DNA of 64,000 bases from an uncultured Gemmatimonadaceae bacterium (GCA_964642475.1 CAZXRC010000002.1:148028-212027); one strand, 5' to 3'; shown: positions 24,670 to 56,783, counted from the first letter of the stretch. Translations and numbers: made by a program. Notes: generated from the letters alone by a model not told the origin.

Positions 24670-26385
24670 CTAGAAGAACACCGGTTCCCGGTAGGTCCCG
24701 TATACCTTCTCGAGGACCTCTCGGATCTCGTACAAGGTGCAATCGCCCCGAGCGCAGTCGAGCATCGGAGGGATCAGGTTGCGATCCTCCTGGGCCGCCT
24801 GCCGGAGCGCGGTCAGGCGAACCTCGACCTGGGTGGCGTCCCGCCGGGACCGGAGCGCCGCCATCCGCTGGCGCTGCACCTGCTCCGCTTGGTCGCTCAC
24901 CTTGAGGATGGTGACCGGCGGTTCCTCCTCCTCTACAAACTGGTTGACGCCCACCACCAGCCGGCGATCATGCTCGACCTCGGTCTGAAACCGGCTGGCC
25001 GACTGGGCGATCTGGCGCTGGAACCAGCCGTTCTCGATCGCCTTCACTACCCCGCCCTGCGCCTCGATCTCGGCGAAGAGCCCCAGGGCCTCCCGCTCCA
25101 TGCCGTCGGTGAGCGCTTCGACGTAGTACGACCCGCCCAGTGGGTCGACCACGTTGGGCACCCCGGTCTCATAGGCGAGAATCTGCTGGGTGCGCAGCGC
25201 GATCCGGACCGACTCCTCGGTGGGAAGGGCCAGGGTCTCGTCCAGTGCGTTGGTGTGCAGCGACTGGGTCCCCCCCAGCACCGCCGCCAGGCCCTGGTAG
25301 GCCACCCGCACGATATTGTTGTGGGGCTGCTGGGCGGTGAGGGTCACGCCGGCGGTCTGGCAATGAAAACGCATCTGCCAGCTCCGCGGGTTCCGGGCCC
25401 CGAACTTCTCCTTCATGGTCCGAGCCCAGATCCGCCGGGCGGCGCGCAGCTTGGCGATTTCCTCGAAGAAGTCGTTGTGGACGTCCCAGAAAAACGACAG
25501 CCGGGGCGCGAAGCTGTCGACGTCGAGCCCCTGTGCGATCCCGTGCTCGACGTAGCAGAAGCCATTGGCCAGGGTAAAGGCGAGTTCCTGTGCCGCGGTG
25601 GCGCCGGCTTCCCGGATATGATAGCCCGAGATGGAAATGGTGTTCCACTTGGGGGTGTTGGCCGAGGCCCATGCGAAAAGGTCGACGATCACCTTGAGGG
25701 CCGGCTCGACCGGGAAGATCCAGGCATGCTGCGCCATGTACTCTTTCAGCATGTCGTTCTGGATGGTCCCCTGCAGCTTCGCGATGTCGACCCCCTGCCG
25801 CTCCGCCGCCGCCACGTAGAAGCAGAAGAGCATTGCGGCCGGGCCGTTGATGGTCATCGAAGTGGAGACCCGGTCGAGCGGAATCCCGTCGAACAGGTCC
25901 GACATGTCCTCGAGACTCGAGATGGCGACGCCGCACTTCCCCACCTCGCCCTCGGAGCGGGGATGGTCGGCGTCGTAACCCATGAGCGTGGGGAAGTCGA
26001 ACGCCACCGAGAGCCCGGTCTGTCCCCGAGCCAGCAGGAACTTGTAGCGCTCGTTGGTGTCTTTGGCGGTCCCGAATCCGGCGAACTGCCGCATGGTCCA
26101 GAGCTTCCCGCGGTAGCCGGTCGGATGGATGCCGCGGGTGAAGGGGTACTCCCCCGGCAGCGCCTCCAGCAGCCCCCGGTTGGCCGGGACATCGAGCGCG
26201 GTGTAGACCGGCTCCGGCGCCCGACCCGAGACGCTGGTGAAGTCGACGTCGGTCCGCAGCCCATGGGCCCCGAATCGCTCCCGCCAGGCCTGCACTTCCG
26301 CGCGCAGCCGCTCCAGCTCACGCTCCTGGTGGCTCACCCGCGTCTGCATGTCGCGCATGCCCGGCTCCGGTTCCCACATCGTCAT
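24670..26385 (-). CDS. B12-dependent acyl-CoA mutase large subunit, ICM-type signature (Phe101/Gln219)
   Basis: [59 protein letters not shown] and [20 protein letters not shown]. Family membership is unambiguous. MCM has RQY..AGF and ..FMVRNTYI at the two positions flagged. Confidence 0.93.
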
Positions 26386-27413
26386 ACCCGTGACCCCTGC
26401 TTGAGGGCATCCAACACCTCGGCGGCCACCTCATACGGACTGATCCGTCCCTGGGCCAGCTCGTCCAGCCGGTCGCGGATCAGCTGGTCCGCGCCCGTCT
26501 CCTGCCAGATCCACTGCCGGGCGGCTCGGTCCACTACTTCACGGGTCCGGTCGAACAACCGTTGCCGCCGCCGCTCCCCGAGCTCGCCGGTGCGCTCCAG
26601 CTCCAGGTAGTGCCCTTCGAGGGCCGTCACCAGCTCCGCGATCCCTTCGCCCTTCGTCGCCACCGTGGCCAGAACCGGGTGGCTCCAGCCGCTCGAGGCG
26701 TGGGGCCCGGGACTCTCCCCGCGCCCCGTCCGCGGACCATGATGCGCCTTGACGTGGCGGAACGCGTTCCCCGCGCGGATCCCGAGGGTAACCTCGATTT
26801 CCTGTCGCAGCCGGTCGGCCCCCGGCCGGTCGGCCTTGTTGACGACGAAGATGTCGCCGATTTCCATGATCCCCGACTTGAGGGTCTGGATCCCATCCCC
26901 CGATTCGGGCACCAGGACCAGCACGGTGCTGTCGGCGCTCCGCGCCACATCCAGCTCCGACTGACCGACCCCCACCGTCTCGATCACGATCCGGTCGAAA
27001 CCGCCGGCATCGAGGACATCGCACACCTCACGCGTGGTAGTCGCGAGCCCGCCGAGGGAGCCGCGGGTCGCCATCGAGCGGATGAAGACCCCGGCATCGA
27101 GGGCCACCGACTCCATCCGGATCCGGTCACCGAGGAGGGCGCCGCCAGTGAAGGGGCTGGTGGGATCCACCGCCACGACTGCCACGGTGAGTCCTATCTT
27201 CCGGTAGGCTTGGACCAGCTGTTCCGTGAGCGTGGACTTGCCCGCTCCAGGAGGACCGGTAATGCCGATGCGCCGGGCGTGACCCAGGTGGGGATGGAGA
27301 GCGGAAAGCAGCTCCTCGAATCCGGAGCGGCCATTTTCAACGATCGAGATGGCCCGGGCGATCGCGGGGGCCCGCTGGGCCCTGAGATCGACCAGGAGTG
27401 CGGCTCCATTCAT
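26382..27413 (-). CDS. meaB: MeaB/ArgK-family G-protein chaperone of acyl-CoA mutases
   Basis: P-loop [41 protein letters not shown] and VVNKADR. The stop overlaps the mutase ATG (ATGA 26382-26385). Confidence 0.92.
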
Positions 27414-44690: not shown

Positions 44691-44786
44691 AGGTGTAGGC
44701 TAGCAGGCGAGGGGCGGGCTGTGCCAGGGCGAGGGTGGTACCGGCGTCGTCGGTGAGGTCGCTACCGGATGAGCGCCGGCGTCTCT

Positions 44787-45188
44787 TCACCCTTCCTTGT
44801 TCTTGTCGCTCCAGATCCGGGGTTCCCACAGCTCCACCTTGTTGCCGTCCGGATCCATGATCCAGGCGAACTTCCCGTTCTCGTGGGACTCGGGACCGCT
44901 CAGCGGCGTGATGCCGGCCTGGCGGAGTTGCTCAAGGAGACCAGCGAGATCGTCGACGCGATAGTTGATCATGAACGACGCGGGGCTCGGCGCGAACCAC
45001 TCGCTCCCCCGGTCGGCGAGGTGCCAGACCGTCAGGCCGCGATCTTCGGCGTGATCATCGGGCCACCGGAGGATGGCACCGCCAAAGCTCTCGAGAGGCA
45101 GGCCGAGATGACGGTGGTACCAGGCCGCCAGTGCGTCCTTGTCGTCACTCTTGAAAAACACGCCGCCGATCCCGGTGATGCGTGCCAT
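44787..45188 (-). CDS. VOC (glyoxalase/bleomycin-resistance fold) family protein
   Basis: MARITGIGGVFFKSDDKDALAAWYHRHLGL...AWIMDPDGNKVELWEP. Start moved to ATG 45188. Confidence 0.8.
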   Translation of the reverse strand: MARITGIGGVFFKSDDKDALAAWYHRHLGLPLESFGGAILRWPDDHAEDRGLTVWHLADRGSEWFAPSPASFMINYRVDDLAGLLEQLRQAGITPLSGPESHENGKFAWIMDPDGNKVELWEPRIWSDKNKEG

Positions 45189-45208
45189 GGAAGACCCCAC
45201 CCGATGCG

Positions 45209-45238
45209 TTGACGGAGCGATGATGGTCCCCATATTAT
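45209..45238 (+). promoter_or_regulatory. strong sigma-70-like promoter candidate
   Basis: TTGACG (45209-45214), 18-nt spacer, TATTAT (45233-45238). This is the best -10 hexamer I saw in the window. Confidence 0.4.
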
Positions 45239-45442
45239 GGTGAGAATAGTATCCGGTCAATGCCGGCGGTCCCCCGGTTGCGGGGCCACCTGGTGCCGGT
45301 CGATTGCGCGGCGGAGTTGGTCGCCGTGATGGAGCCCTTTCCCGCGCGTGTGACGGAGCCATCGCTCCCGTCACGGCGCCAGGGGCAGATCGAACCGGGC
45401 CCGAGCCGAAGCACCGGGCGTCGAGGGCGCCGTCGGCCGGAG

Positions 45443-46744
45443 ATGGTCAAGCGTAGAGACTTCGGTCGCGGATCCCACAGAAGAAAGGGCGGTACCCACG
45501 TGCGAAAGGTCCTGGCCCTGATCGGGACGCTGGTCGTCGGCTGGGGAAGCGACGGGCACGCACAGGTGGATTCGACTCTGGCGAGCCGGTATCACTCCGA
45601 GATCATGACGCTCTGCCAACGTGACGGCGGCCGGCTGTGGGGCGTGTCCCTCTGCGGACCGATCGCCTTCGGGGACGCTCGGACGAAGACGGTGTGGACC
45701 AGCGAACCGGCTCCGGCCGGCCCGCCACCCACGGCTATGGGATTCGCGAACACGGCGGTCGCCTGGGGTGGCCGGAAGTGGGTCCTGCTGGTGTGGAGCA
45801 TCGTACTGGCGCGTGAGGGCGACCGGGCGCGACTGCTGGCCCACGAGCTGTTTCACCGGGTCCAGGATTCGCTCGGGCTCATGACGCCCGATGGCCAGAA
45901 CGACCATCTCGATGAGCTGGAAGGACGCTACTATCTCCTGCTCGAGTGGCGTGCCCTGGCCGAGGCGGTTCAGGGGGCCGGTCCCGCTCGGCAGCGAGCG
46001 ATTGCCGACGCGCTCAGGTTCCGCCGGGCCCGACGCACCCGGTTCCCGGGGTCGGCGGAGCAGGAACGGCGCGAGGAGATTCGGGAGGGCCTGGCGCAGT
46101 ATACCGGGACGGTCATCGCCGCCGGGAGCGCCGAGGCGGTGCGGGAGGATGTCGGGCGACAACTGGCCTCGGCCGCCAAGGGCGAGTCGCTGGTGCGAAC
46201 CTTCGGGTATCCCTTGGGCGCCGCGTACGGCGTGCTGCTGGACGATCTGATGGATGGGTGGCGTCGCCGAATTACCGCGGACTCGGATCTCGGCGATCTC
46301 CTCCAGGCTGCGGTGGGCGGCGCGGAGAGTGACCTGGCGGCGGCGGAGCTGCGCTACGACGGCCCGTCGCTCCGCACCGCCGAGGAGGAGCGGGCGCGGG
46401 TTCGAGCGGCCCGGATCGCCGAACTTCGGCGGGAGCTGGTCGAGGGCCCGACCCTGCGCCTGCCGGCGGCGCCCGGGTCGTTCGCCACTGCCGGGGTGAC
46501 CCCCCTCCCGGGCATCGGGACCGTGTTCCCGTCGGTCCGGGTCACGGCGGGTTGGGGACAGTTGGTGGCCGAACGCGCGTTGCGAATCGGCAGCGAGTGG
46601 ATCGTGGTCGCGGCCCCGGTGCAGGTAGACTCCACCCGTTGGGATGGGCCGGGCTGGAGCCTGACGGTTTCCCCCGGGTGGAAGGTCCGACAACTGGGGG
46701 CGGGCGGCTTCGAGCTGGTGCGGACGGCGCAGGAAGAGCGATGA
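45443..46744 (+). CDS. hypothetical secreted protein with HExxH motif (putative zinc metallopeptidase)
   Basis: Signal-like RKVLALIGTLVVGWGSDGHAQ. HELFH at 45842-45856 (LLAHELFHRVQD). The start is uncertain (ATG 45443, GTG 45500, or in-frame ATG 45260). No family recognised. Confidence 0.6.
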   Translation: MVKRRDFGRGSHRRKGGTHVRKVLALIGTLVVGWGSDGHAQVDSTLASRYHSEIMTLCQRDGGRLWGVSLCGPIAFGDARTKTVWTSEPAPAGPPPTAMGFANTAVAWGGRKWVLLVWSIVLAREGDRARLLAHELFHRVQDSLGLMTPDGQNDHLDELEGRYYLLLEWRALAEAVQGAGPARQRAIADALRFRRARRTRFPGSAEQERREEIREGLAQYTGTVIAAGSAEAVREDVGRQLASAAKGESLVRTFGYPLGAAYGVLLDDLMDGWRRRITADSDLGDLLQAAVGGAESDLAAAELRYDGPSLRTAEEERARVRAARIAELRRELVEGPTLRLPAAPGSFATAGVTPLPGIGTVFPSVRVTAGWGQLVAERALRIGSEWIVVAAPVQVDSTRWDGPGWSLTVSPGWKVRQLGAGGFELVRTAQEER

Positions 46745-47183: not shown

Positions 47184-49952
47184 CTACCCCGTCGCGCCGA
47201 AGCCGGACGAAATGCAGTTGATCGAGAGCAGCAGCGAAGAGAGGTACTGCTGGCGTTCCTGCTCCCCGACCGAGGCCCGGAACCGGCGCAGCAGCTCCAC
47301 CTGCTGTCGGCTCACCTGGTTGATGGTCGGCAGGCGCCGGTACAACCGGCGGCGGAACCGGGGGAACCGCTCGGCGGGCACCGTGCTGCCGGTCACCCGG
47401 AGGACCGCCTCCACCGTGCGGGCGTATTCCTCTTTCACCTGCGCGAAGATCTCCTCGCGGAGCCGGACATCGGGCACCAGATCGGCGTACAGCCGGGCGA
47501 TGTCGAGGTCGACGTAGCAGAGCGTCTTGTCGACCTCGTCGATGACCAGCCGGAAGAGGCGCGAGTCGGTGTACATCCGCTGAATCAGCCGCTCCCCCCG
47601 TTCGCCCCGGACCTGGAGGAAGGTGAGCAGACCGCTGCCCACGCCGTACCAGCCGGTGATGAAGTGCCGGTTCTGGGACCAGGCAAAGACCCAGGGAATG
47701 GCGCGCAGGTCGGCCAGGGTGCGGGCCCCGGTCCGCCGGGCGGGCCGGGAGCCGATGTTGAGCAGCGTCAGCTCCTCCAACGGGCTCGCGGCGGCGAAAT
47801 AGCCGATCAGGTCGGGCTGCTCGACAAAGCGCCGGTAGGTCGCCTGGGCCGCCCCCGAGAGCGCCTCCATGGCCTCGTCGAACTCGCTGGTCGGCACCAG
47901 GGCGGCTTCCCGCTCCGAACGCAGGGTATGCTCGATCACGCCGGCCGTGAGGAGCTCGAGCTGGTACTGGGCGGTGCCGCGGTTGGCGTACTTGAAGGAC
48001 ACCACCTCGCCTTGCTCCGTCAGCCGCATCCGCCCGTGCACCGATCCGGCCGGCTGAGCGGCGATCGCGCGCCCGAGCGGCGCCCCGCCCCGGCTGACCG
48101 ACCCCCCGCGGCCGTGGAAGAAGGAGATCGGCACGCCCAGTTCCGCGCCCAGCCGGGTGAGCCGGGCCTGGGCCTTCGATAGCTCCCAGTTGCTGGAGAG
48201 GAAGCCCCCATCCTTGTTGCTGTCGGAGTACCCGATCATCACCTCCTGGGTACCGCCGAGGGCCCGCACCGAGCGGCGCACCACCGGAGTACTCAGGAGC
48301 TCCCGCATGATCGCCGGCGCGCGGTGCAGGTCGTCGATGGTCTCGAACAGCGGCACGATCGGTAGGGTACAGCACTCCAGCGCGGCCTCGTCGGCGAACA
48401 GGCCCGCCTCCTTGGCCAGCAGGTACGCGCCCAGAACGTCCGCCACCTCGCGGGTCATGCTCAGGACAAAGCTGCCGAACGCCTCGCGGTCGAGCTCGGC
48501 CCGCATCGCCCGCACCAGCCGGAACATCCCCATCGTCTCCTGCGCGTCCGGGGGGAGGCCCTCGAGCGGACGATCGCCTTGGCGGGGCCGGGCGAGCTCG
48601 GCCAGGAGCCAGCTCTTCCACTCCTCGGAATCGAGCGCCGGCGGCTCCCCCGGGTTCCCGGTGGAGACCCGCCAGAGCGCGACCAGCGCCTGGGCCAGGC
48701 GGGTGGAGTTTTCCCGCAGATCCAGCCGCACGGTACTGAAGCGGAACGCTTCGGCCTCACGCCGCACCGGTCTGACCAGCGTCGCCGCGAGCCGGGGGCT
48801 CCCACCCTGGGCCAGTCCCAGCTCCACGGTCCGCAGGTCGGCGAGCAGCTCCTCGGCGGTGGCGTACCCCTCGCCCGGCGGCGCGGCGCGGCCCCGCTCG
48901 GCATGCGCGATCGCACCGTGCAGCCGGGCCATCATGCAGGCGAGATAGTGCCGGAAGATCTCCCCCGGATTCCGCGCCACGATCGCGGCGCTGTCGGGCA
49001 CCTGCGCCAGGGCCCGTTCCAGTCCCTGGCGGAATGCCGATCCGGGATCGATCGCCCGTTCGGTGATACTCAGGGTGCGGAGCAGCTCCGTTAGGCGCTG
49101 GCGATAGCGATACAGGCTCGCCAGTCGGTTCTCGTGCAGCGTCCGGCGGGTGACGTCGTTGGTCACGAAGGGATTGCCGTCGCGGTCACCGCCGATCCAC
49201 GACCCGAACTGCAGGAAAGGCGGCAGCAGGAACCGCTCCCCGGGCCAGGTCTGGCTCAAGACCCGATCGAGCTTCTCCAGCGTCTCGGAGGTGGCCTCGA
49301 ACAGGCTTTCGCTGAAGAAGTGAAGCCCCCAGTATACCTCCTGCGGTACGGTGGGTTTCTCCAGCCGGAGCTCCCCCGTCATCCAGAGGAGCTCGATGTC
49401 GTTCTTGAGTCCGTCGATGATCTGGGTCCGTTCCCGAGGGGTCCAGCGGGGCGACTCCAGGTCCACCAGCCGGCGATAGATCCGGCGGTGCTTTTCGAGT
49501 ACCGTCACCCGCTTGGCTTCGGTGGGGTGGGCGGTGATGGTGGGCCGGATGCGGAGCTCGCCCAGGAGCTGGCGGACCTGCTCGGGGGTGACCTGGTCGC
49601 CCGCCGCGTCGTGCAGCACCTGCGCCAGGGTGCCCCGGACCTGCTCGGGGCCCCGCTCGGTCTCGGTCTGCCGCCGGCGCCGCATCCCGGCGTTCTGCTC
49701 CGCGATGGAGAGGAGCTGGAACCAGATTCCCTGGGCCCGGAGCCCGGCCTCGAGCCGATCGGGGGAGGCCAGGTCCGGCTCCCCGCCCCGCAGCACCGCT
49801 TCCAGCCCCGGCTGCCGGGTTCGCACCACATCGACCAGCAGCCCGAACAGGAGCTCGGCCACCTCACTGGCGTAATGGGCCGCTTCCGCCGCCAGCGGGT
49901 CGGCCGAGGCCGGCAGCGTCTCGGGGAACGGACGGGCGCTCTCCTGGGTCAC
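47184..49952 (-). CDS. ppc: phosphoenolpyruvate carboxylase
   Basis: TAHPTEAKR, GYSDSNKDGG and FHGRGGSVSRGGAP, with a C-terminus ..FGATG. The start is placed at GTG 49952 (GTGA overlap with the hprA stop). The track ORF's upstream 188 codons overlap hprA. Confidence 0.93.
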   Translation of the reverse strand: MTQESARPFPETLPASADPLAAEAAHYASEVAELLFGLLVDVVRTRQPGLEAVLRGGEPDLASPDRLEAGLRAQGIWFQLLSIAEQNAGMRRRRQTETERGPEQVRGTLAQVLHDAAGDQVTPEQVRQLLGELRIRPTITAHPTEAKRVTVLEKHRRIYRRLVDLESPRWTPRERTQIIDGLKNDIELLWMTGELRLEKPTVPQEVYWGLHFFSESLFEATSETLEKLDRVLSQTWPGERFLLPPFLQFGSWIGGDRDGNPFVTNDVTRRTLHENRLASLYRYRQRLTELLRTLSITERAIDPGSAFRQGLERALAQVPDSAAIVARNPGEIFRHYLACMMARLHGAIAHAERGRAAPPGEGYATAEELLADLRTVELGLAQGGSPRLAATLVRPVRREAEAFRFSTVRLDLRENSTRLAQALVALWRVSTGNPGEPPALDSEEWKSWLLAELARPRQGDRPLEGLPPDAQETMGMFRLVRAMRAELDREAFGSFVLSMTREVADVLGAYLLAKEAGLFADEAALECCTLPIVPLFETIDDLHRAPAIMRELLSTPVVRRSVRALGGTQEVMIGYSDSNKDGGFLSSNWELSKAQARLTRLGAELGVPISFFHGRGGSVSRGGAPLGRAIAAQPAGSVHGRMRLTEQGEVVSFKYANRGTAQYQLELLTAGVIEHTLRSEREAALVPTSEFDEAMEALSGAAQATYRRFVEQPDLIGYFAAASPLEELTLLNIGSRPARRTGARTLADLRAIPWVFAWSQNRHFITGWYGVGSGLLTFLQVRGERGERLIQRMYTDSRLFRLVIDEVDKTLCYVDLDIARLYADLVPDVRLREEIFAQVKEEYARTVEAVLRVTGSTVPAERFPRFRRRLYRRLPTINQVSRQQVELLRRFRASVGEQERQQYLSSLLLSINCISSGFGATG

Positions 49953-50923
49953 GCGACGCGATCGCGAACCGGTTTGCCGGCGAAGAACAGGGTGAGGTTC
50001 TCGATCGCGCGCATCCCCATCGCCACCCGGGTCTCGAGCGTGGCGCTGCCGAGGTGGGGGAGAAGGGTGACATTGTCCATGGTCAGCAGCTCGGGCGTCA
50101 CCTGCGGCTCCTTCTCGAACACGTCGAGCCCCGCCCCGGCGATGGTGCCGGCCTTGAGCTCGGCGACCAGCGCCGCCTCGTCCACCACATCGCCCCGGGC
50201 GGTGTTGATCAGGAAGGCGTGCTTCTGCATCTGCCGCAGTCTGGTCGCGTCGATCAGGTGACGGGTTTCGGGCGTGGCCGGGCAATGGAGGGACACGAAG
50301 TCCGACTCCGCCAGCACCTGGTCGATCGAGTCGCGGGGCTCCGCGCCCAGCGCCCTCGCCTCCTCCGGCCGAGGCGGGTAGGGGTCGTGGAAGATCACCT
50401 TCATTCCGAAGCCGTGATGCGCCCGGCGCGCCACCGCCCGGGCGATCCGGCCAAACCCCACCAGCCCGAGGGTCTTGCCGGTCACCTTGGCGCCCAGCAT
50501 GTGGGTGGGCCGCCACCCGGTCCAGGCCTTCTGGCGGACGTGGCGGTCACCCTCGGCCGCCCGACGAGCGACCATGAGCAGCAGCGTCATCCCGATGTCG
50601 GCGGTGTCGTCGGTCAGGACGTCGGGGGTGTTGGTGACGGTCAGGCCGCGGGTCCTGGCGGCATCGATGTCGATGTTGTTGAAGCCTACCCCGAAGTTGG
50701 CGATGATCTTCGCCCGAAGCGGCTCGGCCGCCAGCACCGCGGCCGTCACCTTGTCGGTGACGGTGGGCAGCAACCCATCCGCGCCGCGGAGCGCGTCCTG
50801 AAGCCGGTCGGCGGTGAGCGGCGCGTCGTCGTGGTTGAGTACCGCGTCGAAGCGCCGGCTCGCCTCGGCTTCGCAGGCCGCGGGGATCTTCCGGGTGATG
50901 ACCACCCGGGGTTTCGCGCTCAT
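49949..50923 (-). CDS. hprA: D-2-hydroxyacid dehydrogenase (hydroxypyruvate/glyoxylate reductase)
   Basis: GKTLGLVGFGRIARAVARRA (NAD fold), LINTARGDVVDE and PHLGSAT. 324 aa from ATG 50923 (ATGA overlap with the upstream stop). Confidence 0.88.
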   Translation of the reverse strand: MSAKPRVVITRKIPAACEAEASRRFDAVLNHDDAPLTADRLQDALRGADGLLPTVTDKVTAAVLAAEPLRAKIIANFGVGFNNIDIDAARTRGLTVTNTPDVLTDDTADIGMTLLLMVARRAAEGDRHVRQKAWTGWRPTHMLGAKVTGKTLGLVGFGRIARAVARRAHHGFGMKVIFHDPYPPRPEEARALGAEPRDSIDQVLAESDFVSLHCPATPETRHLIDATRLRQMQKHAFLINTARGDVVDEAALVAELKAGTIAGAGLDVFEKEPQVTPELLTMDNVTLLPHLGSATLETRVAMGMRAIENLTLFFAGKPVRDRVA

Positions 50924-51834
50924 CGGGTCACCAGTCGCTTCTTGGGCGGCCGCTTGGCCAGCGCCTCCTGCACCGCCTTCCCCAGCTCCGCCGGGCTCGG
51001 CGCCACCGTCAGACCCAGCGACCGCATGATCTCGGCCTTCTCCGCCGCGGTGTCGCCGAAGGCGGAGATAATGGCGCCGGCATGCCCCATCCGTCGCCCC
51101 TTGGGAGCGGTGAGACCGGCCACGTAGCCGATGACCGGCTTGCTCATGTGCTCCTTGACCCACATCGCGGCCTCGGCCTCCTGGGGCCCGCCGATTTCGC
51201 CGATCATCATGACCGCCTCGGTCTCGGGGTCCTGCTCGAAGAGGCTCAGGATATCGAGGAAGCTCGAGCCGTTCACCGGGTCGCCCCCGATGCCGATGCT
51301 GCTGGAGACCCCGATCCCCAGCTCCTTCATCTGGGAGGCGGCCTCGTACCCCAGGGTGCCGGAGCGGGTCACCAAGCCCACCGAGCCCGGCTTGTAGATA
51401 TGGCCCGGCATGATACCGAGCATGCACTTGCCCGGGCTGATCAGGCCGGCGCAATTGGGGCCGATGAGGGTGGTGCGCCGCTCCTTGGGATAGCGCCGGA
51501 GGTAGCGCTTCACCACCATCATGTCCTGCGCCGGGATGCCGTCGGTGATGCAACAGACCAGCTTGATACCGGCATCGGCCGCTTCCATGATGGCGTCGGC
51601 GCAGAACGCCGCCGGCACGAAGATGATACTGGCGTCGGGGTAGACCCCCTCGACCGCGTCTTTCACCGTGTTGAAGACCGGCAGCCCCATGTGGGTCTGG
51701 CCGCCTTTGCCCGGGGTGACGCCGCCCACGACCTTGGAGCCGTACTCCACCATCTTCTGGGCGTGGAAGGTGGCCTTGTCGCCGGTGAAGCCCTGGACCA
51801 GGACCCGGGTCAGTTCGTTGATGAGGATTGCCAT
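50920..51834 (-). CDS. mtkB: succinyl-CoA-synthetase-alpha-type CoA ligase subunit; by context malate thiokinase small subunit
   Basis: VLVQGFTGDKATFHAQKMVEYGSKVVGGVTPGKGG and MGHAGAII (phospho-His loop). Start moved to ATG 51834. Confidence 0.85.
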   Translation of the reverse strand: MAILINELTRVLVQGFTGDKATFHAQKMVEYGSKVVGGVTPGKGGQTHMGLPVFNTVKDAVEGVYPDASIIFVPAAFCADAIMEAADAGIKLVCCITDGIPAQDMMVVKRYLRRYPKERRTTLIGPNCAGLISPGKCMLGIMPGHIYKPGSVGLVTRSGTLGYEAASQMKELGIGVSSSIGIGGDPVNGSSFLDILSLFEQDPETEAVMMIGEIGGPQEAEAAMWVKEHMSKPVIGYVAGLTAPKGRRMGHAGAIISAFGDTAAEKAEIMRSLGLTVAPSPAELGKAVQEALAKRPPKKRLVTR

Positions 51835-51836
51835 GG

Positions 51837-53012
51837 TCAGTTCCCTTTCGCCTTCTTCCACGCGGCCACGACCTTGTCGGCGGCGTCGGCCAGACTGTCG
51901 GCCTGGATCAGGTTGAGCCCCGATTGGTCCAGGATCCTGCGGCCTTCCTCCACGTTGGTGCCGGCGAGGCGCACCACCAGGGGGACGTTGACCCCAACCT
52001 CCTTCACCGCCTGCACCACCCCCTTGGCCACCCAGTCGCAGCGATTGATGCCCGCGAAGATGTTGACCAGCATGGCCCCGACCTTCCGGTCCTGCAGCAC
52101 CAGCTTGAAGGCCATGGCCACCCGTTCGGGCGAGGCGCCACCCCCCACGTCCAGGAAGTTGGCCGGCGAGCCGCCGGCATGTTTGATCATGTCCATCGTC
52201 GCCATGGCGAGACCGGCGCCATTGATGATGCAGCCGATCTCGCCGTCCAGCGCCACGTAGTTGAGTCCGTGCTCGCCGGCCTGCGCTTCGCGCGGGTCCT
52301 CCTCCGCGTGATCGCGGAGCTCGGCCACCGTGGGCCGGCGGAAGAGGGCGTTGTCGTCGAACCCCATCTTGGCATCGAGCGCCAGCAGCTGGCCGTCCCG
52401 GGTGACCACCAGCGGGTTGATCTCGACCATGGTGGCGTCGAGGTCGCGGAAGGCGCGGTGGCAGCCCAGGAGGATGGTGACCATGCGGTTGATCAGCGGG
52501 CCCGGGAGGCCCAGGCCAAAGGCGATTTCGCGGGCCTGGAACGACTGCATGCCCACGGCCGGCTCCATGACCTGCCGGAGAATGGTCTCGGGCTCGCGCT
52601 GGGCGATCTCCTCGATCTCCACGCCCCCGTGGGGGTGAGCCACCAGCATGATCCGCTCGGTCTTCCGGTCCAGCACGAAGCCGATGTAGAGCTCGCGCTC
52701 GATCGGCACCGCGGCCTCGACATAGAGCCGGTGGACCACCTTCCCCTCGGGACCGGTCTGGTGGGTCACCAGCCGCTTGCCGAGCAGCTCGGTGGCGGCC
52801 TTGCGCACCTCGTCTTCGGTGGTGCAGAGCTTGATGCCGCCGGCCTTGCCGCGGGCGCCGGAGTGGATCTGGGCCTTCACCGCCCAGCGGGCCCCGCCGA
52901 TCTCGGCGGCCCGGTACACCGCCTGCTCGGCGCTGTACGCGACCCCGCCCCGGGGAACCGCGACACCGAAGTTGGCGAGGAGTTCCTTCGCCTGGTATTC
53001 GTGGATGTCCAT
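51837..53012 (-). CDS. mtkA: succinyl-CoA-synthetase-beta-type (ATP-grasp) subunit; by context malate thiokinase large subunit
   Basis: [22 protein letters not shown].., [16 protein letters not shown] and [10 protein letters not shown]. The stop is 2 nt from the mtkB start. Confidence 0.85.
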
Positions 53013-53054
53013 ATTCGCTCCGTGAAGTCCGTCGTCTCGAGCGCAGGGCCTATC

Positions 53055-53126
53055 TCATCCCGAGCGCAGCGAGGGATCTACTCAGGGCCGGCTAGATCCC
53101 TCGGGCGCTCCGTGCCCTCGGGATGA
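53055..53126. repeat. two-tier palindromic (REP-like) element between mcl and mtkA
   Basis: Outer stem TCATCCCGAG (53055-53064) / CTCGGGATGA (53117-53126). Inner stem CGAGGGATCTA (53070-53080) / TAGATCCCTCG (53093-53103). Both are perfect, with an asymmetric internal loop. Confidence 0.75.
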
Positions 53127-53138
53127 CATCGTTTCGAT

Positions 53139-54080
53139 TCACCTCTTCTTCCCGATCGCCGCCGCCATCTCCATCACCACATTCGCCATCCGGGCGCTGG
53201 CCGCGTCGATCATCCTGCCATCGAGCTGGGCCGCGCCCTTCCCTTCCCGCGCCGCCTGGTCCAGGGCCTCGAGGATCCGCCGGGCCCGGTTGACCTCGGC
53301 CTCGGGCGGCGAGAAGACCTGGTTGGCGAGCTCGATCTGGGACGGATGGATGGCCCACTTCCCCTCGATGCCGAGCGCGGCGCCACGGCGGGCCGCGGCG
53401 AGGAAGGCCTCGGGATCCTTGAAGTCGCCGAAGGGACCGTCGATGGGCCGCAGACCGTAGGCCCGGCAGGCCACGATCATCCGGGTGAGCGAGGCATGCC
53501 ACTGGTCGCCCGGGTAATCGGGGTTGAGCCCGCCGATCGAGACCGTGCGGGCCCGCATGCTGGCGGCGTAGTCGGCCACGCCGAAGTGCATCGCCTCGAG
53601 CCGCTTCGAGCTGGTGGCGATGGCCTCGACGTTGGCCATGCCGAGCGCGGTCTCGATCAGCACGTCGATGCCGATCCGGTGGCCCAGCCCCTTCGCGGCC
53701 TCGATCTGGGTCAGCAGCGCGTCGGTGAGATAGACGTCGGCCGGGACCCCGACCTTGGGGACCAGGACCACGTCCAGCCGGTCGCCGGCCTGCTCCACCA
53801 CGTCCACCATGTCGCGGTAGTAGTAGTGGGTGTCGATGCCGTTCACCCGGACACAGACCGTCTTCCCGTGGCCCCGCCAGTCGTACTGCTTCAGAGCCTG
53901 AATCACGTTGATCCGGGCCTGCTCCTTGTCGGCCGGGGCCACGGCGTCTTCGAGATCGAGAAAGACATAGTCGGCGGCGCTGGTGAGCGCCTTCTCGAAC
54001 ATGGCCGGGTTGGAGCCGGGCACGGCCAGCTCGCTCCGCTGCAGCCGCGGGCGCGCCGGTTCGTAACGGGTGTGACTCAC
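53139..54080 (-). CDS. mcl: L-malyl-CoA lyase (HpcH/CitE-like aldolase family)
   Basis: RSELAVPGSNP, FLDLEDAVAPADKEQAR, LIETALGMANVEAIATSSKRLEAMHFGVADYAASMRAR, ACRAYGLRPIDGPFGDFKDP and GKWAIHPSQIELANQVFSP match methylotroph MclA almost motif for motif (from memory). GTG start 54080. Confidence 0.9.
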   Translation of the reverse strand: MSHTRYEPARPRLQRSELAVPGSNPAMFEKALTSAADYVFLDLEDAVAPADKEQARINVIQALKQYDWRGHGKTVCVRVNGIDTHYYYRDMVDVVEQAGDRLDVVLVPKVGVPADVYLTDALLTQIEAAKGLGHRIGIDVLIETALGMANVEAIATSSKRLEAMHFGVADYAASMRARTVSIGGLNPDYPGDQWHASLTRMIVACRAYGLRPIDGPFGDFKDPEAFLAAARRGAALGIEGKWAIHPSQIELANQVFSPPEAEVNRARRILEALDQAAREGKGAAQLDGRMIDAASARMANVVMEMAAAIGKKR

Positions 54081-55315
54081 GCGACCCCCGCCGGCTGCTT
54101 GGCCACGGCGGCCTCCGCGGGCCCGCCGGTGCGTCTGGCGGGGAGCGGCTGCTGGGTCTCAAGCCAGTAGTGCTGGGCCGCGGCCACGCCGGCGCCGAGC
54201 TCGATCTTGATGCCCACATCGCGCATCGCCATCTCGCTCCCGGCAAGGCCGGCGAGAAGGGTGATCTCGTTGAGATCGCCCAGATGGCCGATCCGGAAGA
54301 GCTTGCCCGCTACCTTGTTGAGCCCCGCGCCGAGGGCGAAGTTGTAGCGGCGGTAGGCCACGTCGATCACGTCGGCGCCGTTGAAACCGGCCGGCACCAT
54401 GATGGCGCTGACGGTGTCGGAGTACCACTTGGGCGCCCGCGCGCACAGGGTGAGTCCCCACGCCGCCACCGCCCGCCGGCAGCCCTCGGCCAGGCGGTGA
54501 TGCCGGGCAAAGACGTTTTCCAGCCCCTCTTCCAGCAACATGGTCAACGCCTCCCGCAACCCGTAGAGCATCGGGATCGAGGGGGTGTACGGGAAGTACC
54601 CGGTCCCGTTGGCCTTGATCATGTCCTCGTAGCTCCAGTAGCAGCGCGGGAGCCTGGCGGTCTTGCCCGCCTCGAGGGCGCGCCGGCTGACGCAGACGAT
54701 GCCGGCCCCCGCCGGAAGCATGAAGCCCTTCTGCGACCCAGTCACCACCACGTCGACCTTCCACTCATCCATCCGGAAGTCGATGCTGGCGAGACCCGAC
54801 ACACTGTCGACGAAGAGGAGGGCCGGGTGCTTCGCGGCGTCGATGGCCTTGCGCACCGCGCCGATGTCGCTGGTGACCCCGGTGGCGGTCTCGTTGTGGA
54901 CCACGCAGACCGCCTTGTAGGCGTGCGCGGTGTCCTGACTCAGGATCTCGTGGATCCGCTCCGGGGGAGCGCCCTCGCCCCATTCGACGTCGATGGCGGT
55001 GACATCGAGGCCGAGCCGCTGCATCATGTCGATCCAGAGATGGCTGAACTGGCCGTAGCGGAAGGAGAGCACCTTGTCGCCGGGCGACAGGGTGTTCACC
55101 AGGGCCGATTCCCAGCCACCGGTGCCGGTGCCGGGGAAGACGAAGGGGGTTCCCCCCTCGGTCTTGAAGACCTTGCGGAGATCCCGGAAGATCGGGTTCG
55201 TCAACTCGGGAAAGGACGAAGACCGGTGGTCCTCCATCGGCACGTGCATCGCGCGGAGGATGCGGTCAGGCGAGTTGGTGGGTCCGGGGACGAAAAGAAA
55301 GTTGCGGCCTGGCAT
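54077..55315 (-). CDS. sga: serine--glyoxylate aminotransferase (class V aminotransferase)
   Basis: GRNFLFVPGPTN, FGQFSHLWIDM-type region (YGQFSHLWIDMMQRLGL), VVHNETATGVTSDIGAVRKAIDAAKHPALLFVD, GSQKGFMLPAG and FRIGHLGDLNE closely resemble SgaA as I remember it. Start moved to ATG 55315. Confidence 0.9.
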   Translation of the reverse strand: MPGRNFLFVPGPTNSPDRILRAMHVPMEDHRSSSFPELTNPIFRDLRKVFKTEGGTPFVFPGTGTGGWESALVNTLSPGDKVLSFRYGQFSHLWIDMMQRLGLDVTAIDVEWGEGAPPERIHEILSQDTAHAYKAVCVVHNETATGVTSDIGAVRKAIDAAKHPALLFVDSVSGLASIDFRMDEWKVDVVVTGSQKGFMLPAGAGIVCVSRRALEAGKTARLPRCYWSYEDMIKANGTGYFPYTPSIPMLYGLREALTMLLEEGLENVFARHHRLAEGCRRAVAAWGLTLCARAPKWYSDTVSAIMVPAGFNGADVIDVAYRRYNFALGAGLNKVAGKLFRIGHLGDLNEITLLAGLAGSEMAMRDVGIKIELGAGVAAAQHYWLETQQPLPARRTGGPAEAAVAKQPAGVA

Positions 55316-55430
55316 GACGCGATCCTCGTGCTGGAGAGTCAGTCTGCGGAAGCTCCGGGCTCCCGCGCGAATGCGTGCGGCGGGCTGTATGTTCATACCG
55401 CGCCAGCCGCGAACCTCTACCGGTACTGCG

Positions 55431-56783
55431 ATGACTTCCGCCACCGGGGCCAGCTCCCCCCGGGCCCTGCTCACGGACCTCTACTGGACCGCCGTCACCG
55501 CGGCGGCTCCCGGTCCGGCCCTCACCCGCTCGCTCGAGTCCCACACAGCCCCCACGGCCCGGCCGGTCCACCTCCTTGCTCTAGGCAAGGCGGCCCTGCC
55601 GATGGCGACCGCGGCGGTCCACCTGCTTGGCTCCCGCAACCAGTCGCCCGCCGGCGGCCTGCTCGTGGTTCCCGAGCCGGGGGTTGCGCCTCACCCGGCC
55701 CTGGCCGTGGCGGTGGGCGATCATCCTCAACCGGGCGCGGCTTCGTTCGCCGCGGCGGAGCGGCTGGCCGAGGCCGTGGCCCGGGTGCGACCGGGCGAGG
55801 AGGTCTGGGTGCTCCTGTCGGGAGGCACGACCAGCCTGATCGGAGCGCCGATTCCGGGCATCGCCCCGACCGACCTGAGTGAGCTCTACCGCCTGTTGCT
55901 GGGATCCGGGCTCGATATTACGGCCATGAATCGGATCCGCAAACGCTTCGCACGCTGGGCCGGGGGTCGGCTGGCCGCCGCGCTGGCCCCGGCGCACGTG
56001 AAAAATTTCACAATCTCGGACGTCATCGGCGACGATCTGGGTGCCATCGGTTCAGGTCCCTGCGTGCCGGATGTGTCCAGCGCGGCGGATGTGCGAGCCC
56101 TGCTCGTGACCGCCGGCCTATGGATGAAGATCCCGCCCCCGTTGCGGGATCACCTCGAAGCCGTGGAACGGGGAACTGCGGCCGAGACGCCCAAGCCCGG
56201 CGATCCTGCCTTCGGTACCACCGAAGTCCACCTGGTTGCGAGCAATCGGTTGGCGCTGGAGGCCGTCTGTACCCGGGCGCGGGCCTTGGGGATGACCGCT
56301 CGGTTGCTCAACGCCGAGCTTTCTGGCGAAGCGGCCCACGTGGGACGGGCCCTGGCGTCAACCCTGCTCGATTATGATGGCACACAAGTGTCGGCCACGC
56401 AAGTCATAGAGCCGAATAATCATGCAATAGCTGTTTGGGGGGGTGAGACGACGGTCACCCTCGGCCCCAACCCCGGCCTGGGAGGCCGCTCCCAGGAACT
56501 CGCGCTCGCCGCCAATCAGGTTTTCGCCGGCTCCACCCGGGCAGACGGCAGGGCGGTGCACCTTCTCGCGGCCGGTACCGATGGTCGGGACGGACCGACC
56601 GATGCGGCTGGCGGGTTCGCGGATGCGGCTACCTGGGAGGCCATCAAGCAGGCCGGACGCGATCCCCTGCTGGACCTGGAGCGGCACGAAAGCAATGCCG
56701 CGCTGCGAGCCGGCAATTCTCTCTTCGTCACCGGCATGACCGGCACCAACGTGATGGACCTGGTGATCGGGTTGCTGCGGTAG
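55431..56783 (+). CDS. glycerate kinase, MOFRL/TtuD-type (glycerate 2-kinase family)
   Basis: LLALGKAALPMA.., LLSGGTTSLI, ISDVIGDDLGAIGSGP and WGGETTV..GGRSQELAL fit the DUF4147+MOFRL layout. Start ATG 55431, inside track ORF 55074..56783. Confidence 0.85.
   Translation: MTSATGASSPRALLTDLYWTAVTAAAPGPALTRSLESHTAPTARPVHLLALGKAALPMATAAVHLLGSRNQSPAGGLLVVPEPGVAPHPALAVAVGDHPQPGAASFAAAERLAEAVARVRPGEEVWVLLSGGTTSLIGAPIPGIAPTDLSELYRLLLGSGLDITAMNRIRKRFARWAGGRLAAALAPAHVKNFTISDVIGDDLGAIGSGPCVPDVSSAADVRALLVTAGLWMKIPPPLRDHLEAVERGTAAETPKPGDPAFGTTEVHLVASNRLALEAVCTRARALGMTARLLNAELSGEAAHVGRALASTLLDYDGTQVSATQVIEPNNHAIAVWGGETTVTLGPNPGLGGRSQELALAANQVFAGSTRADGRAVHLLAAGTDGRDGPTDAAGGFADAATWEAIKQAGRDPLLDLERHESNAALRAGNSLFVTGMTGTNVMDLVIGLLR

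What the first reader, a model, noticed from the sequence alone, without database searches (positions are those of the whole stretch)
47184..56783. Complete serine-cycle enzyme module in one 9.6-kb cluster
Six genes lie on the minus strand, linked by overlaps or small gaps: serine-glyoxylate aminotransferase (54077-55315), malyl-CoA lyase (53139-54080), malate-thiokinase-like ligase (51837-53012 and 50920-51834), hydroxypyruvate reductase (49949-50923) and PEP carboxylase (47184-49952). A divergent glycerate kinase lies at 55431-56783. This is the set that defines the serine cycle of methylotrophs (sga, hpr, mtkA, mtkB, ppc, mcl, gck in Methylobacterium). The Sga and Mcl sequences match my memory of the methylotroph proteins motif for motif. 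mtdA and fch are not in the cluster. In a bacterium of this apparent type the module would indicate C1 or glyoxylate/glycolate assimilation capacity. Acyl-CoA mutase and carboxylase genes that could feed glyoxylate regeneration lie 20-25 kb away.
Basis: partly seen in the sequence, partly recalled or inferred. Interest (0 to 1): 0.6.

Follow-up and report, generated by a model that had tools for sequence, protein, structure and literature searches.

The report
Serine-cycle operon of a Gemmatimonadales bacterium

Summary
MtkAB is a true malate thiokinase, and the genome has a separate housekeeping sucCD. The lyase groups with Methylobacterium malyl-CoA lyase, not CitE. The same genome (Gemmatimonadales, 98.7% complete) carries a XoxF-type methanol dehydrogenase fragment followed by XoxJ-like and XoxG-like genes, pqqC, a full H4MPT formaldehyde-oxidation cluster with fae, ftfL, an mtdA-like gene and glyA. 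No pmoA or RuBisCO was found. In a sample of 301 Gemmatimonadota genomes, 56 have mtkA, and 53 of these also have fae. The nearby acyl-CoA mutase and carboxylase genes do not indicate an ethylmalonyl-CoA pathway: ccr was found in none of the 301 genomes. Glyoxylate is probably regenerated by isocitrate lyase; here the candidate is a divergent 378-aa ICL-family protein that co-occurs with mtkA. XoxF, H4MPT and the serine pathway in soil Gemmatimonadetes were published with proteomics in 2016 (PMC5103831). The finding is therefore already known. Only the ICL link looks new, and it is modest.

The parts
54077..55315 (-). sga: serine-glyoxylate aminotransferase (412 aa), first gene of the operon
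   Evidence: Class-V aminotransferase. The best solved relative is serine-glyoxylate aminotransferase 6PK1 at 487 bits. It is 62-69% identical to the sga gene inside Methylobacterium serine-cycle clusters. The BhcA model scores 601 bits, below its 650 cut-off.
53139..54080 (-). mcl: malyl-CoA lyase (313 aa), GTG start, overlaps sga by 4 nt
   Evidence: 427 bits over its full length to M. extorquens malyl-CoA/beta-methylmalyl-CoA lyase 5UGR and 326 bits to R. sphaeroides Mcl 4L9Y, against about 111 bits for citrate lyase. It is the only copy in the genome.
53053..53129 (-). Imperfect palindrome (about 24 paired bases) in the 126-nt mcl-mtkA gap
   Evidence: The RNA fold gives -51.9 kcal/mol with z = -1.5. 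Relatives carry unrelated hairpins or no gap at this junction. It is therefore a variable REP-like insert and not a conserved regulatory element.
51837..53012 (-). mtkA: malate-CoA ligase (malate thiokinase) beta subunit, 391 aa
   Evidence: NF010647 scores 705 bits (cut-off 604), against 551 bits for the SucC model. It is 65-73% identical to MtkA of known serine-cycle methylotrophs. In the tree it lies inside the malate thiokinase clade.
50920..51834 (-). mtkB: malate-CoA ligase alpha subunit, 304 aa
   Evidence: SucD-family at 443 bits. It is always adjacent to mtkA and 64-79% identical to proteobacterial MtkB. The housekeeping SucD is only 54% identical.
49949..50923 (-). hpr: D-2-hydroxyacid dehydrogenase, inferred hydroxypyruvate (and glyoxylate) reductase, 324 aa
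   Evidence: Pfam 2-Hacid_dh domains. Solved relatives include glyoxylate reductases (256 bits) and 1GDH, D-glycerate dehydrogenase (237 bits); from memory, not from the tool output, 1GDH is the Hyphomicrobium methylovorum serine-pathway enzyme. It is 57-63% identical to the hpr at the same operon position in Aminobacter, Mesorhizobium and gammaproteobacterial clusters, and only about 33% identical to Methylobacterium HprA.
47184..49952 (-). ppc: phosphoenolpyruvate carboxylase, 922 aa, last gene of the operon
   Evidence: PF00311 scores 786 bits. NF000584 scores 762 bits, just under its 815 cut-off. It is the only PEPC hit in the genome.
55316..55430 (.). 115-nt divergent intergenic region between sga and gck; the promoters are presumed to lie here
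   Evidence: Defined by the gene coordinates. The sigma-70 consensus scan found no site here, so promoter function is inferred from position only.
55431..56783 (+). gck: class-II glycerate 2-kinase, 450 aa, divergent from the operon
   Evidence: DUF4147 plus MOFRL domains. Solved relatives are the glycerate kinases 2B8N and 1X3L. The divergent gck-sga arrangement recurs in four related Gemmatimonadales loci.

Best explanation
The cluster is a functional serine-cycle operon that a methanol-oxidising (not methane-oxidising) Gemmatimonadales bacterium uses to assimilate C1 carbon.

Inferred C1 supply: a periplasmic lanthanide-type XoxF oxidises methanol. Formaldehyde is captured by Fae and oxidised to formate through the H4MPT pathway. 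Formate is then reduced to methylene-H4F by FtfL, an Fch-like cyclohydrolase and an MtdA-like dehydrogenase.

Inferred cycle: GlyA joins methylene-H4F with glycine to give serine. Sga transfers the amino group to glyoxylate. Hpr reduces hydroxypyruvate to glycerate. Gck makes 2-phosphoglycerate and enolase makes PEP. Ppc fixes CO2 to give oxaloacetate, and malate dehydrogenase gives malate. MtkAB activates malate to malyl-CoA at the cost of ATP. Mcl splits malyl-CoA into glyoxylate, which is recycled to Sga, and acetyl-CoA.

The second glyoxylate is most likely regenerated from acetyl-CoA through citrate and isocitrate by an isocitrate lyase (the 'icl+' variant of the cycle), not by the ethylmalonyl-CoA pathway. 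In this genome the candidate is a divergent 378-aa ICL-family enzyme.

Shown here: gene identities, orthology, operon structure, genomic co-occurrence and conservation. Inferred: every enzymatic activity, the direction of flux, growth on methanol and the role of the ICL-like protein.
For: Tight coupling of the six genes (4-nt overlaps, one 2-nt gap) suggests a single transcript.

The order sga-mcl-mtkA-mtkB-hpr-ppc is kept in eight other Gemmatimonadales loci. It is shared with Aminobacter, Mesorhizobium and gammaproteobacterial MAG clusters, and Hyphomicrobium loci share the sga-mcl-mtkA-mtkB part.

The same genome carries the rest of the route:
- fae plus mtdB-like, fhc, mch and H4MPT-biosynthesis genes at C20:60-75 kb
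- a XoxF C-terminal fragment whose best solved matches are XoxF 6OC5 and 4MAE, followed by XoxJ-like, cytochrome c (XoxG-like) and YncE-like genes
- two further PQQ alcohol dehydrogenases that carry the D-x-D motif
- pqqC, ftfL and glyA
- an MtdA-like gene 48% identical to M. rhodesianum MtdA, and Fch-like genes
- no pmoA and no RuBisCO.

Phylum sample: 56 of 301 genomes have mtkA, and 53 of these have fae.

Glyoxylate regeneration: ccr scores at most 114 bits here (cut-off 379) and was not found in any of the 301 genomes. An ICL-family gene is present in 45 of the 56 mtkA-positive genomes, against 9 of the 245 others, and 5 of those 9 are fae-positive. The divergent and canonical-like forms are never found together. 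As recalled from the ICL literature, the residues that define ICL are kept in the divergent form (SGW, DxE, CGH, ARTD, NxSxS, and the ICL-type W, F and T). Malate synthase A is also present.

Against: xoxF is truncated by a contig end and ftfL is split over two contig ends, so their integrity cannot be checked.

The Hpr is not the Methylobacterium HprA type (33% identity), so its substrate is inferred from operon position.

The ICL-like protein scores far below the ICL equivalog cut-offs (184 against 562 bits, 178 against 276 bits), and its catalytic loop reads RTCGH in place of KKCGH, followed by a 7-residue insert.

Eleven mtkA-positive genomes show no ICL-family hit. One of them has only about 5 contigs.

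The cluster's Ppc is the only PEPC in the genome, so it must also serve general anaplerosis.

Co-occurrence counts are inflated by shared ancestry.
Confidence: 0.8

Rival explanations
1. The module mainly serves C2 metabolism, that is glycolate or glyoxylate assimilation or detoxification, and not C1 assimilation. Glyoxylate from glycolate oxidation would be transaminated by Sga or condensed with acetyl-CoA by Mcl, and Hpr plus Gck would run a glycerate route.
For: A GlcD-like FAD oxidase with a GlcE-like neighbour exists at C1:184591-186491, at 442 bits against a 568 cut-off. Malate synthase A is present. The Hpr belongs to the glyoxylate/hydroxypyruvate reductase family. Similar mtkAB-mcl clusters occur in Roseobacter-group bacteria, which as far as I know are not classical methanol utilisers.
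Against: MtkAB spends ATP to make malyl-CoA, which is pointless for glyoxylate consumption because malate synthase or Mcl plus a thioesterase would suffice. 53 of 56 mtkA-positive Gemmatimonadota genomes also carry fae. The GlcD-like hit is below its cut-off. No glyoxylate carboligase route was examined. All seven genes are the set that defines the serine cycle.
Confidence: 0.1
2. The operon runs as a C4-to-C2 converter, like a reverse glyoxylate shunt. Malate would be converted through malyl-CoA to acetyl-CoA and glyoxylate, supplying acetyl-CoA and glycine/serine during growth on organic acids, independently of methylotrophy.
For: MtkAB plus Mcl catalyse exactly this conversion. The only PEPC of the genome sits in the operon, which links it to central C3/C4 metabolism. 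Three mtkA-positive genomes lack fae.
Against: This does not explain the co-transcription of sga, hpr and the adjacent gck. It also does not explain the near-complete co-occurrence with the H4MPT pathway, or the published high abundance of methylotrophy proteins in related populations.
Confidence: 0.06
3. The aminotransferase is BhcA, and the locus belongs to a beta-hydroxyaspartate-type glyoxylate assimilation route.
For: The best NCBIfam model for the aminotransferase is BhcA (NF045640) at 601 bits.
Against: The score is below the 650 cut-off. The neighbours are mcl and gck, not bhcB, bhcC or bhcD. The protein is 62-69% identical to the sga gene of Methylobacterium serine-cycle clusters.
Confidence: 0.02

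Closest known systems
Serine-cycle gene clusters of 'icl+' and related proteobacterial methylotrophs (Aminobacter, Mesorhizobium, uncultured Gammaproteobacteria; partly Hyphomicrobium)
   Same: Aminobacter, Mesorhizobium and the gammaproteobacterial MAGs share the order sga-mcl-mtkA-mtkB-hpr, in most cases followed by ppc; Hyphomicrobium loci share sga-mcl-mtkA-mtkB. The Hpr type is the same (57-63% identity), and Mcl is 68-75% and MtkA 65-73% identical. As recalled from the classical literature, Aminobacter is the textbook ICL-positive serine-pathway organism. That matches the absence of ccr and the presence of an ICL-family gene here.
   Different: The host phylum is different. gck is divergent here instead of downstream. 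In the MtkAB tree the Gemmatimonadales sequences group nearer the Methylobacterium/Methylocapsa/Methyloversatilis clade than the clade with the same gene order (SH-aLRT 89, long outgroup branch). The ICL candidate is a divergent short form.
Methylobacterium (Methylorubrum) extorquens serine cycle: sga-hpr-mtdA-fch-mtkA-mtkB-ppc-mcl, gckA, with the ethylmalonyl-CoA pathway
   Same: The enzyme set is the same. Mcl scores 427 bits to the solved M. extorquens enzyme. MtkA is about 70%, Sga about 63% and Ppc about 60% identical. The H4MPT and H4F C1 modules and XoxF are present elsewhere in the genome.
   Different: The gene order differs. mtdA and fch are not in the cluster. Hpr is a different subfamily (33% identity). 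No ccr was found, so there is no ethylmalonyl-CoA pathway. No LysR (QscR-like) regulator lies next to the cluster.
Methylotrophic soil Gemmatimonadetes described by genome-resolved proteogenomics (Butterfield et al. 2016, PMC5103831; xoxF3 systems in PMC10875860)
   Same: The lineage and the gene inventory are the same: XoxF, PQQ synthesis, a complete H4MPT pathway, and the H4F-to-serine pathway with the malate-intermediate branch.
   Different: Those papers do not describe the operon layout, its distribution across the phylum, or how glyoxylate is regenerated in Gemmatimonadetes. They assign 'glycerate kinase' where this genome has a class-II glycerate 2-kinase.

Membership tests
Serine cycle of methylotrophs | Malate thiokinase MtkAB distinct from the housekeeping succinyl-CoA synthetase | tested here: met
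   NF010647 scores 705 bits against a 604 cut-off. A second sucCD pair lies at C2:70972-72974. In the tree, MtkAB sits with proteobacterial MtkAB, and the genome's own SucCD is on a 5.3-substitution branch.
Serine cycle of methylotrophs | Malyl-CoA lyase (Mcl), not the CitE citrate-lyase beta subunit | tested here: met
   5UGR scores 427 bits and 4L9Y 326 bits, against about 111 bits for citrate lyase chains. The CitE model scores 187 bits, below its 443 cut-off.
Serine cycle of methylotrophs | Serine-glyoxylate aminotransferase (SgaA orthologue) | tested here: met
   487 bits to SGAT 6PK1. 62-69% identity to the sga gene inside Methylobacterium clusters, at a conserved position next to mcl. 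Amino-donor preference was not tested.
Serine cycle of methylotrophs | Hydroxypyruvate reductase | tested here: inconclusive
   It belongs to the GyaR/GhrB-type D-2-hydroxyacid dehydrogenases, below all NCBIfam cut-offs. It scores 237 bits to D-glycerate dehydrogenase 1GDH. It is 33% identical to Methylobacterium HprA and 57-63% identical to the hpr of same-order clusters. The substrate is inferred from context.
Serine cycle of methylotrophs | Glycerate kinase and PEP carboxylase | tested here: met
   gck has DUF4147 plus MOFRL domains and matches glycerate kinases 2B8N and 1X3L. ppc scores 786 bits on PF00311 but is slightly under the NF000584 cut-off (762 against 815).
Serine cycle of methylotrophs | Supply of methylene-H4F from C1 substrates (methanol dehydrogenase, formaldehyde oxidation, FtfL/Fch/MtdA, GlyA) | tested here: met
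   fae and the H4MPT cluster. XoxF fragment with XoxJ-like and XoxG-like genes. pqqC, ftfL, MtdA-like and Fch-like genes and glyA. xoxF and ftfL are cut by contig ends.
Serine cycle of methylotrophs | A glyoxylate-regeneration route (ICL or the ethylmalonyl-CoA pathway) | tested here: inconclusive
   ccr was not found. A divergent ICL-family protein scores 184 bits against a 562 cut-off but keeps the ICL-type residues, and it co-occurs with mtkA.
Serine cycle of methylotrophs | Growth on, or 13C assimilation from, C1 compounds; enzyme activities | not testable with these tools
Ethylmalonyl-CoA pathway | Crotonyl-CoA carboxylase/reductase (Ccr, TIGR01751) | tested here: not met
   The best hit in the genome scores 114 bits against a 379 cut-off. 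None of 301 Gemmatimonadota genomes has a hit at E<=1e-70, while the control rang in Caulobacter.
Beta-hydroxyaspartate cycle (BhcABCD) | BhcA above its model cut-off and adjacent bhcB, bhcC and bhcD | tested here: not met
   BhcA scores 601 bits against a 650 cut-off. The neighbours are mcl, gck and a LytR_C protein. bhcBCD elsewhere in the genome were not searched.
Methanotrophy | Particulate methane monooxygenase PmoA | tested here: inconclusive
   There is no PF02461 match in the genome, but the control also rang nowhere, so the search is not validated. sMMO was not searched.

The most novel reading that the evidence does not exclude
Gemmatimonadales run an ICL-dependent serine cycle. In the window's lineage, the glyoxylate-regenerating enzyme is a previously uncharacterised short (about 378 aa) isocitrate-lyase subfamily. 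Its catalytic loop reads RTCGH in place of KKCGH and is followed by a 7-residue insert. It replaces canonical ICL in a mutually exclusive way among serine-cycle-positive genomes: 36 carry the divergent form, 9 the canonical-like form and none carry both. The ethylmalonyl-CoA pathway was not found in any of the 301 genomes sampled from the phylum.
Probability: 0.45. Interest if true: 0.4.

Novelty: already known. Interest (0 to 1): 0.25.

Why it matters
Gemmatimonadota are abundant in soils, and methanol from plant material is a large carbon flux, so knowing which of them can assimilate C1 carbon helps with soil carbon budgets. That point was already made by proteogenomics in 2016.

This analysis adds three things. 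First, it defines the operon (sga-mcl-mtkAB-hpr-ppc with a divergent gck) that can serve as a marker. Second, it gives a distribution: about one in five sampled Gemmatimonadota species, all in two families of one order, and nearly always together with fae. Third, it gives a testable suggestion that glyoxylate regeneration in this lineage depends on an unusual isocitrate-lyase relative and not on the ethylmalonyl-CoA pathway.

Tried and rejected
- Ethylmalonyl-CoA pathway fed by the nearby mutase and carboxylase genes: rejected. These genes are an MCM-type large subunit, MeaB and a carboxyltransferase, and ccr was found neither here nor in 300 other Gemmatimonadota genomes.
- MtkAB as the housekeeping SucCD: rejected.
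- Lyase as CitE: rejected.
- Aminotransferase as BhcA: rejected on score and context.
- A second serine-cycle-like locus on C42, suggested by weak sga, hpr and fch paralogue hits: it is an FTCD-like gene plus serA-serC-serB, which is ordinary serine biosynthesis.
- The mcl-mtkA hairpin as a conserved regulatory structure: rejected. Relatives have unrelated hairpins or no gap, and only 3 such paired sites exist in the genome.
- A terminator after ppc: none convincing.
- Promoter consensus in the divergent gap: none found.
- Methanotrophy: no pmoA match, but the control was silent, so this is weak.
- CBB autotrophy or photorespiration: no RuBisCO.
- Recent horizontal arrival: not supported. The cluster's G+C matches the surrounding window, and the gck-side neighbourhood (panC) recurs in two relatives.

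Full report
**Observation**

Each is in frame, with a start codon, a stop codon and no internal stop.
- The six minus-strand genes are tightly coupled. sga/mcl, mtkB/hpr and hpr/ppc each overlap by 4 nt, mtkA/mtkB are 2 nt apart, and only mcl/mtkA are separated, by 126 nt.
- gck is divergent from sga across a 115-nt gap.
- The window is uniformly about 69-71% G+C, and the cluster does not stand out.

**Gene identities**

NCBIfam and Pfam scans:

| Gene | Result |
|---|---|
| mtkA | 705 bits on the malate-CoA ligase beta equivalog (cut-off 604), against 551 bits on the SucC model |
| mtkB | SucD-like |
| mcl | HpcH/HpaI family |
| hpr | D-2-hydroxyacid dehydrogenase |
| ppc | PEPcase, 786 bits |
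| gck | DUF4147 plus MOFRL |
| sga | class-V aminotransferase; best model is BhcA at 601 bits, below its 650 cut-off |

Comparison with solved structures sharpens this.
- The lyase matches M. extorquens malyl-CoA lyase 5UGR over its full length at 427 bits and R. sphaeroides Mcl at 326 bits. Citrate-lyase chains reach only about 111 bits.
- The aminotransferase matches serine-glyoxylate aminotransferase 6PK1 at 487 bits.
- The dehydrogenase matches glyoxylate reductases and 1GDH, D-glycerate dehydrogenase, at 237 bits. From memory, 1GDH is the Hyphomicrobium methylovorum enzyme.
- The kinase matches the class-II glycerate kinases 2B8N and 1X3L.

**Organism**

The closest homologues of Sga (92% identity) and of the other proteins come from Gemmatimonadales metagenome-assembled genomes. 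The window lies on contig 2 of a 4.17-Mb, 79-contig genome that is 98.7% complete.

1. Not the only sucCD. A second, adjacent sucC-sucD pair lies at C2:70972-72974 (42% and 54% identity). In a maximum-likelihood tree of concatenated MtkA plus MtkB from 77 loci, the window groups with six other Gemmatimonadales sequences (a seventh, L097, is unresolved next to this group) inside the malate thiokinases of Methylobacterium, Methylocapsa, Methyloversatilis, Hyphomicrobium, Aminobacter and others. The genome's own SucCD sits on a very long branch.
2. The lyase is Mcl, not CitE.
3. C1 genes are present.
   - Fae (235 bits) lies in a cluster with an MtdA/B-like dehydrogenase, fhc subunits, mch and H4MPT-biosynthesis genes at C20:60-75 kb. 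These neighbours were named by eye from their translations, apart from the MtdA-like gene, which was matched by BLAST.
   - An 88-aa C-terminal fragment at the start of contig C22 matches XoxF 6OC5 and 4MAE best. It is followed by XoxJ-like, cytochrome c (XoxG-like) and YncE-like genes.
   - Two more PQQ alcohol dehydrogenases carry the D-x-D motif that I recall as typical of lanthanide enzymes.
   - pqqC, glyA and ftfL, which is split across two contig ends, are present.
   - Using the mtdA and fch genes of the M. rhodesianum locus as queries, I found an MtdA-like gene next to fae (48% identity) and two Fch-like sequences. One is a stand-alone protein on C69; the other is the C-terminal domain of an FTCD-like protein.
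   - No pmoA match (control silent) and no RuBisCO were found.

**Conservation and relatives**

The order sga-mcl-mtkA-mtkB-hpr-ppc is found in eight other Gemmatimonadales loci, four of them with the divergent gck and two also with panC nearby. The same order occurs in Aminobacter (with gck in place of ppc), some Mesorhizobium and several gammaproteobacterial MAGs, and Hyphomicrobium loci share the sga-mcl-mtkA-mtkB part. Methylobacterium has sga-hpr-(mtdA-fch)-mtkA-mtkB-ppc-mcl and a different Hpr subfamily.

Identities to proteobacterial enzymes are high for an inter-phylum comparison (MtkA 65-73%, Mcl 60-75%). The Gemmatimonadales clade is nested among proteobacterial lineages when the tree is rooted on SucCD. 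This is compatible with an old transfer. The root sits on a long branch and the key node has only 89% SH-aLRT support, so I leave the direction of transfer open.

**Distribution**

In a sample of 301 Gemmatimonadota species genomes:
- 52 have mtkA above the cut-off and 4 more have it truncated at contig ends. All 56 lie in two families of the window's order.
- 64 have fae.
- 53 genomes have both, 3 have only mtkA and 11 have only fae.

Relatedness inflates any statistic. Even so, the pattern argues that the module works together with H4MPT-linked formaldehyde oxidation.

**Glyoxylate regeneration**

The mutase, MeaB and carboxyltransferase genes at 20.6-27.4 kb of the window look like the ordinary propionyl-CoA/methylmalonyl-CoA route. 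Crotonyl-CoA carboxylase/reductase was not found in this genome (best hit 114 bits against a 379 cut-off) or in any of the 301 genomes, although the control rang in Caulobacter. The ethylmalonyl-CoA pathway is therefore not supported.

Malate synthase A is present (746 bits). The only ICL-family gene is a 378-aa protein at C25:26985-28118.
- It scores far below the ICL equivalog cut-offs (184 against 562 bits) but is closer to ICL than to methylisocitrate lyase.
- Aligned to a solved ICL, it keeps SGW, DxEAGFGG, the Cys-Gly-His of the catalytic loop, ARTD and NxSPS. It also keeps the Trp, Phe and Thr that, from my recollection of the literature, distinguish ICL from PrpB.
- Its loop reads RTCGH where ICL has KKCGH, followed by a 7-residue insert.
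- Hundreds of metagenomic homologues of the same length exist. JGI calls them 'isocitrate lyase', and NCBI calls them 'isocitrate lyase/PEP mutase family protein'.

In the phylum sample, close orthologues (72-91% identity) occur in 39 genomes and canonical-like ICLs (33-36% identity) in 15, never both in one genome. Of these 54 genomes, 45 are mtkA-positive and 5 more are fae-positive. This supports an ICL-dependent ('icl+') serine cycle but does not prove it. Eleven mtkA-positive genomes show no ICL-family hit.

**Other details**

- The cluster's mcl, gck and ppc are single-copy in the genome. Ppc must therefore also serve general anaplerosis.
- Flanking genes are unrelated: a PadR regulator convergent with ppc; a LytR_C protein, an HD-domain protein, panC and panB beyond gck; and rlmN and a phosphodiesterase further upstream.
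- The 126-nt mcl-mtkA gap holds a 77-nt palindrome. Relatives have different hairpins or no gap there, so it is a variable insert and not a conserved regulator.

**Comparison with the literature**

Butterfield et al. 2016 (PMC5103831) reported that soil Gemmatimonadetes genomes encode XoxF, PQQ synthesis, the entire H4MPT pathway and the H4F-to-serine pathway with the malate-intermediate branch. [quoted passage not shown] Later work described xoxF3 systems and serine-pathway genes in Gemmatimonadetes MAGs (PMC10875860). A Gemmatimonadota methanotroph MAG, 'Ca. Methylotropicum kingii', is cited in PMC11102522. The finding as given is therefore an instance of a published capability. I found no paper in the searched library that addresses glyoxylate regeneration or the divergent ICL in this lineage; that search is limited to open-access text.

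**Verdict**

Novelty is low: the finding is already known. The modest new element is the ICL-dependent variant with a divergent ICL-family enzyme and the apparent absence of the ethylmalonyl-CoA pathway in the phylum sample.

Noticed in passing
G000:C25:26985-28118 (outside the window): A divergent 378-aa isocitrate-lyase-family protein. Its catalytic loop reads RTCGH in place of KKCGH and is followed by a 7-residue insert, but it keeps ICL-type residues. It co-occurs with mtkA across Gemmatimonadales and is mutually exclusive with canonical-like ICL.
   Followed up: partly
G000:C22:3-269; C44:22128-23057; C71:6843-7268: The XoxF gene is cut by a contig end, leaving only its last 88 residues. 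ftfL is split across two contig ends. The assembly therefore breaks inside two key methylotrophy genes, possibly because of paralogues or strain variation.
   Followed up: partly
G000:C1:51507-53663: A PQQ alcohol dehydrogenase with an N-terminal cytochrome c domain (CxxCH) and a D-x-D motif. Its best NCBIfam model is 'acido-empty-quinoprotein group A', TIGR04528, at 456 bits (cut-off 650).
   Followed up: no
G000:C3:108342-109019: The pqqC match (303 bits, above the cut-off) is reported with one TGA inside the matched stretch. I did not check whether this is the natural stop, a frameshift or a sequencing error.
   Followed up: no
window 53053-53129 (minus strand): A 77-nt imperfect palindrome in the mcl-mtkA gap. 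One relative (L026) carries a different, near-perfect 70-nt hairpin that begins with the same GTCATCC(T/C)GAG word. Other relatives have none. It looks like a REP-like mobile palindrome.
   Followed up: partly
window 24670-27413: A methylmalonyl-CoA-mutase-type large subunit of 571 aa, covering only the substrate-binding domain, overlaps meaB. No B12-binding small subunit was identified among the neighbouring ORFs that I scanned.
   Followed up: no
G000:C42:471-10426: An FTCD-like formiminotransferase-cyclodeaminase lies near a serA-serC-serB (phosphorylated serine biosynthesis) cluster. This explains the weak second hits for sga, hpr and fch.
   Followed up: yes
window 45260-46744 (+) and 44769-45212 (+): Two ORFs upstream of the PadR gene have no Pfam or NCBIfam match. 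The 494-aa one has a 37%-identical paralogue on C5.
   Followed up: no
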